From Chloroflexota bacterium (GTDB lineage Bacteria; Chloroflexota; UBA11872): 64,000 nt of DNA. Both the position numbers and the translations under genes were made by a program. This document shows, piece by piece, positions 29,244 through 30,968 of this stretch. The notes beneath the pieces were generated by a model that was given only the letters and a program-made list of their open reading frames with translations, searched no databases and had not been told where the DNA came from. Location of the stretch: NCBI GenBank assembly GCA_965247475.1, contig OZ252016.1, positions 982,087 to 1,046,086 of the forward strand, written 5' to 3'. Each line of letters starts with the position of its first letter. Position 1 is the first letter of the stretch.

Positions 29244-29750
29244 TTGACGAATCCGTCGGCCAGCGGCTTGCGTTCGCTTTCGTCCAATGGCTCAGACAAA
29301 CGGGGCGCAGCCACCGCCGTAGTCGCAAATCTTACTGGCATCACCTCGCCCGGGCTCTACGCAGCCACACTCGACGGCCTGCGCGCCGCAGGTCTCAACG
29401 TCCACGCCGCCGGGGTCGAGCTTGTCGAGAGGCTGCGCACCGGTCTTCCAGGATTGTCACATCGAGCGCACTTTCAGTTCGCCGTACAGTGCGTCATGGC
29501 CGGAAATGGTGGGCCTATTTTGACGGTAGACAGTACCGTCTTCGAGATGTGGTTGGGGGCTCTGTGACCCATGGCGCCGTGACCCTTACGGAGAGTTCGA
29601 GCCTCTTCGGTGGAGGTGAGGGTGCTGACCCAGCAGTACAGGCTGACTTACAACCGCGTCAGGCCTCACAGCTCCCTGGTCTACATGCCGCCGGTGCCCG
29701 ACGCCGTCCTGCCCGCAGACCTTGTTCCAATGCTTGTCGGTGTAACATAA
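29244..29750 (+). pseudogene. Remnant of a DDE transposase/integrase, interrupted by stops at 29565 and 29580
   Basis: The C-terminus ...QQYRLTYNRVRPHSSLVYMPPVPD is the typical end of rve-type (IS3/IS481-like) integrases. Confidence 0.45.
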
Positions 29751-29753
29751 CAG

Positions 29754-30455
29754 TTATCGGGGGCTGGTCAACCTCTCGCTATTGATGACTTGTCCTACGG
29801 TCTCCCAGTTGCTGGGTATATCAGGAATAGGCCACTCCTGATGCGGTCTCCAATGTTCCCACCCATCACAGAAGGGCGAATCTCTACGCTCAATTGCCTC
29901 GATCATACGGTCCGATTCTGCGCGTATTAGGACATTCACTTCATCACCCAACAACCCTCTTTGATGGAGCTCTGAGAACTCGTCTTCATCCTTCAACACC
30001 CACGAAAAGTCGGGGCTTACAAGTATGTCCAGGATGTAGTCCTGCCCTAGAATCCCATGATCCGTAAATTGTATGGGAGACTGAAGATTCACATACAAGA
30101 ACTGGAGTTCCCAGTCTGCTGACCAGAATAGGCGCACCGAATGCCATGAATCCGGTGGTGTCAGCGTCAAAACGTGATAAGTACGCGAGACCCGCTCTTC
30201 GAATGGTTGCAGATCACCCATCATGATCGTCACTCGTTCTTCAACCGATAGAGTGTAGCGGTTCTCATACGAGGAACGAAATGCAGACGCGGTACGGTAC
30301 GGTGCTCCTCGATGCGTATACAATGCGAGTAGGTCCCGCCGGTCCTCCACGACAGTTACAGGACGGGCAAGGAGAAGGGATCCCCACCATAGTTCTTGCT
30401 GAAGGATCTGCTCACCCGGCTGCCACCGCCTTGAGTTAGTTCCTGAATTGTTCAT
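29754..30455 (-). CDS. DUF402 family protein (FomD/nucleoside-diphosphatase-like). The gene has anomalously low GC.
   Basis: DYILDILVSPDFSWVLKDEDEFSEL fits the DUF402 acidic signature. Local GC is about 50% against about 70% in the flanks. Confidence 0.65.
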   Translation of the reverse strand: MNNSGTNSRRWQPGEQILQQELWWGSLLLARPVTVVEDRRDLLALYTHRGAPYRTASAFRSSYENRYTLSVEERVTIMMGDLQPFEERVSRTYHVLTLTPPDSWHSVRLFWSADWELQFLYVNLQSPIQFTDHGILGQDYILDILVSPDFSWVLKDEDEFSELHQRGLLGDEVNVLIRAESDRMIEAIERRDSPFCDGWEHWRPHQEWPIPDIPSNWETVGQVINSERLTSPR

Positions 30456-30750
30456 CGTTACATCACCCGACCTCTGGAGAATGTATTTGACCTGTACGCG
30501 ATAGTTGTGCCACCTGTTATGTTACACGACGGCGCATACAGTACAGAGAACAACCTACACCTTCCCAGACGACTTCCCGCAGCGGCTGAAGCGGTTCCAG
30601 GAGGAGTCGGGCCTGTCGTGGTCGGAGATCGCCCGCTGTCTTGGGACCTGTCGCCACGCCGTATGACGATGGAGTGAAGGCAGCCGTATACCCGGGAGAG
30701 ATGCCGAGGAGATGGCTCTACAAAGCCCAGTTCTGTCTGCCGTCAAGTCT

Positions 30751-30826
30751 GGTGGACCGGGTGGGACTCGAACCCACGATCTTCGGACTACGGATCCCGC
30801 TGCTTTGCCGGCTGAGCCACCGACCC
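30751..30826 (-). tRNA. tRNA-like sequence, possibly a degenerate or pseudo tRNA
   Basis: The reverse complement has a canonical T-arm GTGGGTTCGAGTCCCAC, acceptor 3' CCGGTCC-A-CCA pairing with 5' GGGTCGG via two G-U pairs, and D-arm GCTCAGCCGG. The anticodon arm cannot be folded canonically. Confidence 0.35.
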
Positions 30827-30968
30827 GGCGCCAGTTTAGTGGTCGACCGCCGGCCCGCCGGGCGGCGTGCCTGCACCTTGCCGGTTGCGGGCGCCTTCTA
30901 TACCTTCATGACGATGAGCTCAGCTGACGGCACCTGCGGGGGCGCCGGGCGACGGGTAACGCTTCAAA

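What the first reader, a model, noticed from the sequence alone, without database searches (positions are those of the whole stretch)
29244..30830. Patchwork island of transposase C-terminal remnant, low-GC DUF402 gene and degenerate tRNA-like sequence
Within 1.6 kb there are three elements: the last roughly 35 codons of an rve-type integrase, ending ...YNRVRPHSSL; a DUF402 gene whose GC content is about 50% in a 70% GC background; and a tRNA-like sequence with intact T-arm and acceptor stem but an unfoldable anticodon arm. Together they indicate horizontal acquisition at, or via, a tRNA-derived att site.
Basis: seen in the sequence. Interest (0 to 1): 0.5.

Follow-up and report, generated by a model that had tools for sequence, protein, structure and literature searches.

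The report
Island remnant beside decaying threonine tRNA
A 1.2-kb scrap of foreign mobile DNA carrying one intact enzyme gene has inserted exactly at the end of a threonine tRNA gene that is itself picking up damaging mutations; this is an ordinary genomic-island remnant, with a small chance that the altered tRNA still works in an unusual way.

Summary
Window 29513-30749 (1,237 bp, GC 0.55 against 0.68) is an insertion missing from four closely related genomes. In those genomes a tRNA-Thr(CGU) gene directly follows an old phosphomannomutase pseudogene. The insert starts exactly at the tRNA's CCACCA end, is flanked by a 6-bp direct repeat (TGGTGG) and has 14-bp subterminal inverted repeats. It contains an IS3-type transposase tail, an intact FomD-like DUF402 gene (GC 0.52, dN/dS about 0.3) and a pseudogene of an 81-aa HTH regulator. 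The same HTH gene and right arm abut tRNA-Ala(GGC) in another genome. An intact HTH homologue lies beside a P4-type integrase next to tRNA-Ala(UGC). I read the insert as a non-autonomous remnant of a tRNA-3'-end-targeting integrative element. No integrase was found with these arms, so the enzyme is inferred. The "tRNA-like" sequence is the resident tRNA-Thr(CGU) orthologue. It has four derived changes, including an extra C that gives an 8-nt anticodon loop. A sister genome with no island has an even more damaged copy, so gene decay is the likeliest reading; a natural frameshift-suppressor tRNA is unlikely but not excluded. All orthologues carry an alanine-type G3:U70 acceptor end.

The parts
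29168..29506 (+). Frameshifted N-terminal remnant of a phosphoglucomutase/phosphomannomutase gene. It is flanking host DNA and not part of the island.
   Evidence: Pfam PGM_PMM_I, E 1.2e-6. The same pseudogene is present in L001, L010 and L012 at 95-97% identity.
29507..29512 (.). Left copy of the 6-bp direct repeat TGGTGG (attL core, or target-site duplication).
   Evidence: The window/L001 alignments overlap by exactly these 6 bp. The same hexamer precedes the left-arm motif in L008.
29513..30749 (.). The inserted segment as a whole: 1,237 bp, GC 0.546.
   Evidence: Absent from L001, L010, L011 and L012. Composition.
29513..29570 (+). Left arm of the element, containing the inverted-repeat motif TTGACGGTAGACAG at 29520-29533.
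   Evidence: It pairs 13/14 with 30733-30746; 0 of 5000 shuffles reach this. The 64-bp motif recurs in L007 at 4004-4048 and in L008 at 4079-4142.
29601..29750 (+). C-terminal remnant of an IS3-family (rve) transposase; there is no catalytic domain.
   Evidence: Pfam rve_3, E 1.4e-7. NCBIfam transpos_IS3 positions 339-366 of 369. Stop codons lie upstream in the frame.
29740..29753 (.). Left arm of the inner inverted repeat bounding the DUF402 cassette (GTGTAACATAACAG).
   Evidence: Perfect 14-nt inverted repeat with 30514-30527. It is 28 nt long in L004/L009, and the window copy lacks 9 bp of it.
29754..30455 (-). Intact 233-aa DUF402 / FomD-like hydrolase gene, the only intact gene of the insert.
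   Evidence: PF04167, E 2e-12. Full-length match to NCBIfam FomD, 134 bits, below the 320-bit cut-off. Twelve other cluster members are at least 90% identical. Against the L004 copy, 14 synonymous versus 12 non-synonymous codon differences.
30514..30527 (.). Right arm of the inner inverted repeat (CTGTTATGTTACAC); it overlaps the ATG of the HTH pseudogene.
30519..30681 (+). Pseudogene of an 81-aa HTH (XRE/CII-like) regulator. It has a 5' frameshift, a TGG-to-TGA nonsense change at 30664-30666 and an 87-bp internal deletion.
   Evidence: 70-80% amino-acid identity to about 90 small HTH proteins. 87% nucleotide identity to intact genes in L017 and L021. The defects are read, and the L004/L009 copies share them.
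30682..30749 (+). Right arm of the element, containing the inverted-repeat motif CTGTCTGCCGTCAA at 30733-30746.
   Evidence: The same arm abuts TGGTGG of tRNA-Ala(GGC) in L021/L022. It abuts CGGTGG or TGGTGG at non-tRNA sites in L004, L009 and L007.
30750..30826 (-). Orthologue of tRNA-Thr(CGU) with an 8-nt anticodon loop (AUCCGUAG), a C13.A22 mismatch and an encoded CCA. Positions 30750-30755 are the right copy of TGGTGG.
   Evidence: ARAGORN 'tRNA-??? ccgt'. Rfam 43.6 bits, against 55.7 for L001 and 63.0 for L010; L012 is not detected. Alignment A2.

Best explanation
Window 29513-30749 is a degenerate, non-autonomous remnant of an integrative element that targets the 3' end of tRNA genes ending in UCCACCA. 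It entered this lineage after the split from its closest sampled relatives, by recombination within the 6-7 bp core TGGTGG(A), which is the tRNA's CCACCA terminus. This left the tRNA gene physically whole. The two ends carry inverted 14-bp motifs (TTGACGGYAGACAG) next to the core, as expected for recombinase core-binding sites. The recombinase is not encoded in the insert and must have acted in trans (inferred). The cargo is a mosaic that was already dead when it moved: an IS3 transposase tail, an inverted-repeat-bounded cassette with an intact FomD-like DUF402 hydrolase gene that is still under purifying selection, and a pseudogene of the element's small HTH regulator. The adjacent tRNA-like sequence is the resident tRNA-Thr(CGU) gene. 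It is an atypical copy with an alanine-type acceptor end (G3:U70, A73) that is losing function in this clade. In the window it has a broken D-stem pair and a one-base insertion that enlarges the anticodon loop to 8 nt, so it is most likely a young pseudogene. Shown: the insertion, its boundaries, its foreign composition, its recurrence elsewhere, and the orthology and mutations of the tRNA. Inferred: the recombinase type, mobilisation in trans, and loss of tRNA function.
For: Empty sites occur in four relatives, and the two flank alignments overlap by exactly 6 bp. GC is 0.546 against 0.68, and DUF402 GC3 is 0.55 against 0.82. The end motifs form a 13/14 inverted repeat that no shuffle out of 5000 reaches. 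The same right arm plus HTH gene abuts TGGTGG of tRNA-Ala(GGC) in L021/L022; arm motifs always sit next to YGGTGG (or GGCGG) in L004, L007, L008 and L009. An intact HTH homologue lies 1.2 kb from a P4-type tyrosine integrase that abuts tRNA-Ala(UGC) in L013-L020. The module with identical pseudogene defects is about 95% identical in L004/L009, in a different gene context and at host GC about 0.60. For the tRNA: syntenic orthologues are tRNA-Thr(CGU). Rfam scores fall in a series of 63.0, 55.7, 43.6 and undetected. The window groups with L012, and both share G22A. Island-free L012 has 11 private substitutions in the tRNA. About 12 kb of conserved coding sequence shows no frameshifting indels between the window and L001, which argues against a sloppy assembly.
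Against: No integrase or transposase was found with these arms: none in the insert, and none within 10 kb upstream in L021. The integrase-bearing loci L013-L020 lack the arm motif, so the link to a tyrosine recombinase rests only on the shared HTH family. The inverted motifs sit 7 nt and 3 nt from the repeat, which is asymmetric for core sites. Some arm copies abut non-tRNA DNA. The window's 3 private tRNA changes against 1.1 expected from the flanks are not significantly above neutral (P about 0.1). The two 'intact' orthologues also change at about the neutral rate, so loss of constraint is argued from the kind of changes and from L012, not from rates. The rest of the genome could not be searched for a second tRNA-Thr.
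Confidence: 0.6

Rival explanations
1. The insert is a MITE-like, non-autonomous DDE transposon. TTGACGGYAGACAG would be its terminal inverted repeats, and TGGTGG a 6-bp target-site duplication made by a transposase with a strong target preference.
For: Small size, inverted repeats near both ends and a 6-bp flanking direct repeat. Arm copies also occur at non-tRNA sites. No integrase accompanies these arms.
Against: The inverted repeats are not terminal: they are offset 7 nt and 3 nt from the repeat. The flanking hexamer is essentially the same at every independent site, unlike ordinary target duplications. The only transposase sequence inside is an internal IS3 tail unrelated to the ends. The HTH family is found with a tyrosine integrase.
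Confidence: 0.2
2. No dedicated recombinase was involved. Foreign DNA from an 'HTH-arm-tRNA' region like that of L021 was incorporated by homology-facilitated illegitimate recombination. The conserved tRNA 3' half served as the anchor, and the other end joined at TGGTGG microhomology.
For: Window 30682-30775 aligns with the arm plus tRNA-Ala 3' half of L021 at 75%. Only 6 bp of identity mark the left junction.
Against: It does not explain the significant inverted repeat at the two ends. It also does not explain recurrence of the left-arm motif next to TGGTGG in other genomes, or the same module at non-tRNA sites.
Confidence: 0.1
3. The 8-nt-loop tRNA is functional. It would be a natural sufD/sufJ-like +1 frameshift suppressor or quadruplet (ACGG) decoder, possibly charged with alanine through G3:U70, and retained because it is useful.
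For: The cloverleaf is otherwise intact, with U33 and A37 in place, an encoded CCA and an Rfam score above threshold. Laboratory suppressors arise from exactly this kind of C insertion 5' of the anticodon (PMC4238358). Two of the three private changes lie in the anticodon loop. The assembly shows no general indel problem.
Against: The variant was seen in one genome only. Scans of 185,579 species genomes and of JGI metagenomes found no relative with either loop length. It is accompanied by a pair-breaking D-stem mutation, shared with a sister copy that is clearly dead. The only frameshifted gene near the locus has no ACGG at its indels (by inspection). ACGG would be very frequent in a 68% GC genome, so an efficient suppressor would be harmful.
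Confidence: 0.07
4. The extra C is a homopolymer-length error in a long-read metagenome assembly, and the tRNA is really a normal tRNA-Thr(CGU).
For: Related contigs have long-read-style names with coverage values as low as 2-20x. C to CC is a typical length error.
Against: No frameshifting indels relative to L001 in about 12 kb of conserved genes. Three substitutions accompany the insertion, one immediately beside it.
Confidence: 0.07
5. The DUF402 gene is the core of a composite transposon flanked by two copies of one IS, with the ends TGTTATGTTACAC facing the gene. This IS moved it to the tRNA.
For: The stop codon of the transposase tail lies inside one arm of the inverted repeat, and an HTH reading frame starts just inside the other arm.
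Against: The HTH frame is not a transposase N-terminus but a pseudogene of a stand-alone 81-aa regulator. The inverted repeat also extends 15 nt toward DUF402 in L004/L009. The insertion boundaries at the tRNA are the outer arms, not these repeats.
Confidence: 0.03

Closest known systems
Genomic islands and integrative elements inserted at the 3' end of tRNA genes by P4-type tyrosine integrases
   Same: The insertion lies exactly at a tRNA 3' end and leaves the tRNA whole. It has flanking direct repeats, deviant GC, a small HTH regulator near the tRNA-proximal end, and IS debris and accessory cargo inside. It is absent from sister genomes. A P4-type integrase next to tRNA-Ala accompanies an intact homologue of the HTH gene.
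   Different: No integrase is present and the segment is only 1.24 kb. The repeat is only 6-7 bp and lies at the very CCA end, rather than being tens of bases of the tRNA 3' half. The arms were not seen together with any integrase.
Non-autonomous derivatives of integrative elements that keep att sites but no recombination genes (CIME-type cis-mobilisable elements; recalled from memory, not checked in a paper here) and MITEs
   Same: It is a short element with both ends and no mobility gene. The same already-degenerate module is found at about 95% identity in different genomic contexts.
   Different: Mobilisation in trans is inferred, not shown. The left end is missing in the other copies (L004, L008 and L009 break at window position 29651).
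Laboratory +1 frameshift-suppressor tRNAs sufD (tRNA-Gly with C inserted between positions 33 and 34) and sufJ (tRNA-Thr with C31.5); PMC4238358
   Same: A single C inserted on the 5' side of the anticodon of an otherwise normal tRNA gives an 8-nt loop. Formally the anticodon becomes CCGU, complementary to ACGG.
   Different: It was found in nature without selection for suppression. It is accompanied by a broken D-stem pair. A sister lineage shows outright decay. There is no functional evidence.
FomD (cytidylyl-2-hydroxypropylphosphonate hydrolase) and NtdP (nucleoside tri/diphosphatase), the characterised DUF402 enzymes
   Same: End-to-end alignment to the FomD profile (residues 11-219 against 1-205 of 207; E 5e-39) and a DUF402 core.
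   Different: The scores (134 and 39 bits) are far below the equivalog cut-offs (320 and 280). There is no phosphonate gene cluster around it, so the substrate is unknown.
Animal tRNA-Thr species with G4:U69 that AlaRS mischarges (PMC7337962, PMC5802732)
   Same: A threonine-anticodon tRNA carries the alanine G:U determinant in its acceptor stem. Here it is the canonical G3:U70 with G2-C71 and A73.
   Different: This is a bacterial tRNA. G4-C69 and G20 of the bacterial alanine identity set are absent. Charging was not tested. The gene is decaying in two of the four distinct lineages sampled (five loci, L010 and L011 being identical).

Membership tests
tRNA (Rfam RF00005) | Cloverleaf scoring above the family gathering score | tested here: met
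   43.6 bits against 29. Orthologues score 55.7 and 63.0.
tRNA (functional elongator) | 7-nt anticodon loop with an assignable 3-nt anticodon | tested here: not met
   8-nt loop AUCCGUAG. ARAGORN reports 'tRNA-???' with the 4-base anticodon ccgt.
tRNA-Thr(CGU) | Orthology to tRNA-Thr(CGU) genes (same flanks, same body) | tested here: met
   Syntenic genes in L001, L010 and L011 are called tRNA-Thr(cgt). The window copy differs at 4-5 of 76 positions.
tRNA-Thr(CGU) | Aminoacylation by ThrRS and decoding of ACG | not testable with these tools
   Needs tRNA sequencing and charging assays.
Bacterial tRNA-Ala identity set (A73, G2-C71, G3.U70, G4-C69, G20; PMC9976931) | Presence of the determinants | tested here: inconclusive
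   A73, G2-C71 and G3.U70 are present in all five orthologues. Positions 4-69 are U.G, and position 20 is C.
+1 frameshift-suppressor tRNA (sufD/sufJ type) | Extra nucleotide in the anticodon loop of an otherwise intact tRNA | tested here: met
   C inserted next to C34 relative to four orthologues.
+1 frameshift-suppressor tRNA (sufD/sufJ type) | Demonstrated suppression or conservation of the variant | tested here: not met
   Seen in one genome only. There were no hits in the genome or metagenome scans, and the sister copy is dead. Suppression itself is not testable here.
tRNA-associated genomic island / integrative element | Absent from close relatives, deviant composition, abuts a tRNA 3' end, flanked by direct repeats | tested here: met
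tRNA-associated genomic island / integrative element | Encodes an integrase | tested here: not met
   The only intact ORF is DUF402. An integrase appears only near an intact HTH homologue in other genomes.
MITE / DDE transposon | Terminal inverted repeats directly abutting a target-site duplication | tested here: inconclusive
   A 13/14 inverted repeat is present but offset 7 nt and 3 nt from the 6-bp repeat. The repeat sequence is the same at independent sites.
IS3-family transposase | Complete OrfA/OrfB with the DDE catalytic core | tested here: not met
   Only the last 30 or so residues match, with stop codons upstream.
Pfam DUF402 (PF04167) | Domain match above the gathering score | tested here: met
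   47.5 bits against 23.9.
FomD / NtdP equivalogs (NCBIfam) | Score above the curated equivalog cut-off | tested here: not met
   134 against 320 bits, and 39 against 280 bits.

The most novel reading that the evidence does not exclude
The window's tRNA is not dead. It would be a naturally arisen tRNA-Thr-derived decoder with an 8-nt loop (anticodon CCGU) and an alanine-type G3:U70 acceptor end. It would cause low-level +1 frameshifting or quadruplet reading at ACGG and/or Thr-to-Ala substitution. More broadly, this clade would carry a Thr-anticodon tRNA with alanine identity whose anticodon region is being remodelled or destroyed repeatedly (window and L012), because it mistranslates.
Probability: 0.07. 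Interest if true: 0.75.

Novelty: new member of a known kind. Interest (0 to 1): 0.3.

Why it matters
As it stands this is a routine case: a tRNA 3' end used as a landing site by a mobile element, followed by decay to a small remnant that keeps one useful gene. The empty-site comparison fixes the boundaries to the base and shows that a dead 1.2-kb module can still spread between genomes of different composition. The tRNA is worth a short follow-up for two reasons. It is a rare natural example of the exact lesion that makes laboratory frameshift suppressors. It also belongs to a threonine-anticodon tRNA with the alanine G3:U70 mark, which only three sequences (all alanine-type or odd bodies) matched in a scan of JGI metagenomes. 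If that tRNA is charged with alanine, its repeated loss would be a natural experiment on the cost of mistranslation.

Tried and rejected
1. I first read the inner repeats (TGTTATGTTACAC) as the ends of two IS copies facing the DUF402 gene, that is, a composite transposon. I rejected this once the 'N-terminal transposase' frame proved to be a pseudogene of a stand-alone 81-aa HTH protein and the repeat was seen to extend toward DUF402 in sister copies.

2. I first read residues upstream of 29513 (…AGNGGPILTV…) as part of the rve domain. This is wrong, because the empty site shows that sequence is host DNA up to 29512.

3. A scan of one genome per GTDB species for the tRNA (acceptor and D-arm pattern) gave only two chance matches inside coding DNA. 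A JGI metagenome scan for the tRNA with either a 7-nt or an 8-nt loop gave nothing.

4. An exact-sequence look-up of the window's DUF402 protein found no contig, although the cluster listing shows the same sequence on a 2.71-Mb contig.

5. Viral-contig scans for the HTH protein and for the right arm found nothing, so there is no prophage link.

6. A 12-nt match to the tRNA-Ala end inside the HTH gene of L017 was considered as an att repeat. I dismissed it as probably chance; my own estimate is about 6%.

7. The promoter/terminator scan of 29400-31000 gave no more than chance.

8. An IS200/IS605-type hairpin end was considered for the left arm (GACGGTA-GACAG-TACCGTC). The hairpin is not conserved in the L007 and L008 copies.

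9. MFE folding of the tRNA alone does not give a cloverleaf (z = -0.76). This is uninformative, as is usual for tRNAs.
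Full report
**What is in the sequence**

GC falls from 0.67-0.75 to 0.49-0.55 between about 29700 and 30500. The window as a whole is 0.679 GC.

- **DUF402 gene.** ORF 29754-30455 on the minus strand (233 aa) matches Pfam DUF402 (E 2e-12). It aligns end to end with the NCBIfam FomD profile at 134 bits, well below the 320-bit equivalog cut-off. Its GC is 0.517 and GC3 0.547, against GC3 0.82 for the neighbouring M14 peptidase gene.
- **Transposase tail.** The frame ending …YNRVRPHSSLVYMPP… (29601-29750) matches the last 31 positions of rve_3 (E 1.4e-7) and the last residues of the IS3 transposase model. Upstream in that frame there are stop codons and no catalytic domain.
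- **tRNA.** At 30750-30826 on the minus strand, ARAGORN reports 'tRNA-???' with the four-base anticodon ccgt. The Rfam tRNA model scores 43.6 bits against a gathering score of 29, with an 8-nt anticodon loop and a C13.A22 mismatch.

Two further pieces were missed. One is an N-terminal phosphoglucomutase/phosphomannomutase pseudogene at about 29168-29506 (Pfam 1.2e-6). The other is an HTH reading frame at about 30519-30681 (HTH_23, 2e-4).

**The empty site**

I used the adjacent M14 peptidase to find related genomes and fetched their loci.

- In L001, window 23439-29512 aligns with 3566-9688 (96.05%) and window 30750-32413 aligns with 9683-11350 (95.99%). The two alignments overlap by exactly six bases, TGGTGG.
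- The same empty site is present in L010, L011 and L012.
- In all four, the PMM pseudogene runs straight into a tRNA gene. ARAGORN calls that gene tRNA-Thr(cgt) in L001, L010 and L011.

The foreign segment is therefore 29513-30749 (1,237 bp, GC 0.546). It is inserted at the CCACCA end of a resident tRNA-Thr(CGU) gene and flanked by TGGTGG on both sides.

**Structure of the insert**

- **End motifs.** Seven bases in from the left junction and three in from the right lie TTGACGGTAGACAG (29520-29533) and its near-complement CTGTCTGCCGTCAA (30733-30746). None of 5000 shuffles of the two 40-nt ends reaches this 13/14 match.
- **Inner repeat.** A second, perfect 14-nt inverted repeat (29740-29753 and 30514-30527) brackets the DUF402 gene.
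- **HTH pseudogene.** The frame to the right of it is not a transposase N-terminus. It is 70-80% identical to about 90 stand-alone 81-aa HTH proteins (MPRQRTHYSRRTYVFPDNFPQRLKRFQEESGLSWSEIARRL…), which resemble XRE/CII-type regulators. Compared with intact genes in L017 and L021 (87% nucleotide identity), the window copy has three defects: a one-base length difference near the start, a TGG-to-TGA nonsense change at 30664-30666, and an 87-bp deletion.

**The module elsewhere**

- **DUF402 relatives.** The DUF402 protein belongs to a cluster of 13 sequences at least 90% identical, on different contigs. One of them is the window's own 2.71-Mb contig.
- **L004 and L009.** These have host GC about 0.60 and a different gene neighbourhood. 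They match window 29651-30755 at about 95%, including the transposase tail, both inner repeats, the same HTH defects and the right arm. The module was therefore already degenerate when it spread.
- **Selection on DUF402.** Against the L004 copy the gene shows 14 synonymous and 12 non-synonymous codon differences. My rough estimate is dN/dS about 0.3, so the gene itself is being maintained.
- **L008 and L007.** L008 breaks inside the right inner repeat. L007 has only the ORF (91.7%) with neither repeats nor remnants. I cannot explain how the cassette with its inner repeat arose.

**What kind of element**

- **Right arm.** In L021/L022 the HTH gene is followed by the same right arm (…CAGTTCTGTCTACCGTACAAAA) and then TGGTGG, the 3' end of tRNA-Ala(GGC). 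In L004/L009 and L007 the arm is followed by CGGTGG or TGGTGG in non-tRNA DNA.
- **Left arm.** The left-arm motif is preceded by TGGTGG in L008 and by GGCGG in L007.
- **Shared target.** tRNA-Ala and this tRNA-Thr share the terminal sequence UCCACCA.
- **Integrase link.** In L013-L020 an intact HTH homologue lies 1.2 kb from a P4-type tyrosine integrase that abuts the 3' end of tRNA-Ala(UGC).

Three features fit an integrative element recombining in a 6-7 bp core at the tRNA terminus better than a DDE transposon: a constant short core at both junctions, inverted motifs beside it, and a preference for tRNA ends. There are real weaknesses. No recombinase was found with these arms (none in 10 kb of L021). 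The integrase-bearing loci lack the arm motif. The inverted motifs are asymmetrically spaced from the core. I therefore give the recombinase-in-trans model about 0.5-0.6, a target-specific MITE about 0.2, and tRNA-anchored illegitimate recombination about 0.1.

**The tRNA**

Alignment of the five orthologues gives an inferred ancestor:

GGGTCGGTAGCTCAGCCGGCAGAGCAGCGGGCTCGTAGTCCGAAGATCGTGGGTTCGAGTCCCACCCGGTCCA

| Locus | Changes from the ancestor | Rfam tRNA score |
|---|---|---|
| L010 / L011 | one benign change (G38A) | 63.0 bits (L010; L011 not scanned) |
| L001 | one benign change (C63T, giving G:U) | 55.7 bits |
| Window | A9G, G22A (breaks the 13-22 pair), C32A, and an extra C next to C34 | 43.6 bits |
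| L012 | G22A plus 11 private substitutions, mostly in the anticodon arm; no island | no hit at E ≤ 0.01; ARAGORN also calls nothing |

Flank sites group the window with L012 (25 sites, against 9 and 6 for the alternatives). G22A therefore probably arose in their common ancestor, before or independently of the insertion.

On rates, the window's three private changes compare with 1.1 expected from the flanks (P about 0.1). L012's eleven compare with 0.46 expected.

The simplest reading is that this tRNA gene has lost constraint in this sub-lineage and the window copy is an early-stage pseudogene. The island did not cause this.

An assembly artefact for the extra C is unlikely. About 12 kb of conserved genes show no frameshifting indels relative to L001.

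**The less ordinary possibility**

Inserting a C on the 5' side of the anticodon is how the classical suppressors sufD and sufJ arose, the latter from a tRNA-Thr (PMC4238358). The window's loop, A-U-CCGU-A-G, keeps U33 and a purine after the anticodon and is complementary to ACGG.

Several observations count against function:

- The variant is unique to one genome.
- Scans of 185,579 species genomes and of JGI metagenomes found no relative.
- It coexists with a structural defect that is shared with a dead sister copy.
- The one frameshifted gene nearby has no ACGG at its indels.

I put this reading at about 7%.

**An unusual acceptor end**

All five orthologues have G1-C72, G2-C71, G3.U70, U4.G69 and A73. 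These include the major bacterial alanine determinants, although G4-C69 and G20 are missing (PMC9976931).

The body is threonine-like by my comparison with E. coli thrW, which I recalled from memory. A scan of all JGI metagenome contigs for GGG…UCCA acceptor ends combined with a CGU anticodon found three sequences. Two have typical tRNA-Ala bodies and one is aberrant.

So a threonine-type tRNA with G3:U70 looks rare. Whether AlaRS charges it, and whether that explains its repeated loss, is open.

**Verdict**

This is a small, decayed, horizontally acquired element at a tRNA 3' end, which is a known kind of thing. Beside it sits a tRNA gene that is probably dying for its own reasons.

Not achieved:
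- identification of the recombinase;
- recovery of a full-length parent element;
- the origin of the inner repeat;
- any functional statement about the tRNA or the DUF402 enzyme.

The host is probably a Chloroflexota MAG, judging from the names on homologues at 50-68% identity. I did not place it more precisely.

Noticed in passing
window 32137-35036: A second insertion relative to L001. A 2.3-kb segment carrying a xanthine/uracil-type permease gene (32623-34365; Pfam Xan_ur_permease 1e-39) is flanked by about 277-bp direct repeats (32137-32413 and 34758-35036, 95-97% identical). The repeats duplicate the 3' end of the M14 gene and its downstream spacer. GC dips to 0.57-0.66 here.
   Followed up: partly
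window 30750-30826; L001 9683-9758; L010 3684-3757; L011 3535-3608; L012 about 3685-3757: All orthologues of this threonine-type tRNA carry an alanine-type acceptor end (G1G2G3.U70, C71, C72, A73) with U4.G69. A JGI-wide scan for that acceptor end combined with a CGU anticodon found only three sequences, none with a threonine-type body.
   Followed up: partly
L012 about 3685-3757: The tRNA orthologue in an island-free sister genome has 11 private substitutions in 76 nt, against 0.46 expected from its flanks, concentrated in the anticodon arm. This is far above neutral. The cause could be hypermutation, gene conversion or selection for inactivation; it is unknown.
   Followed up: partly
window 29740-29753 and 30514-30527; L004 2629-2641 and 3413-3425: The inverted repeat bounding the DUF402 gene is 28 nt long in sister copies. 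The window lost 9 bp of one arm. It has no target duplication and overlaps a stop codon on one side and a start codon on the other. L007 carries the same ORF (92%) with no repeat. The origin of this cassette is unexplained.
   Followed up: partly
window 27850-29033 (minus strand) versus L001 7980-9200: The hypothetical membrane-protein gene left of the locus has several indels that are not multiples of three relative to L001 (window 28120, 28531-28538, 28939-28942). It is the only gene in about 12 kb compared that does. It is either a pseudogene or a fast-evolving low-complexity gene.
   Followed up: no
L001 13152-19006: A 5.8-kb segment with a 1337-aa protein and an IS630-type (HTH plus DDE_3) transposase is present in L001 but absent from the window. 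This is another strain-level indel at the locus.
   Followed up: no
window 30750-30752 versus L010, L011 and L012: The window and L001 encode CCA after the discriminator base, whereas L010-L012 have CGA, although the window groups with L012. The CCA in the window may have been supplied by the element's TGGTGG core.
   Followed up: no
L022 5702-10384: Two inverted copies of tRNA-Ala(GGC) plus arm plus HTH flank 4.5 kb on a 4x-coverage contig. This is possibly a foldback assembly artefact rather than biology.
   Followed up: no
L007 3741-4048: A right-arm-like motif plus TGGTGG, then 230 bp, then a reverse-complemented left arm, lying 2 kb from that genome's DUF402 gene. It may be a miniature or rearranged copy of the element's ends.
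   Followed up: no
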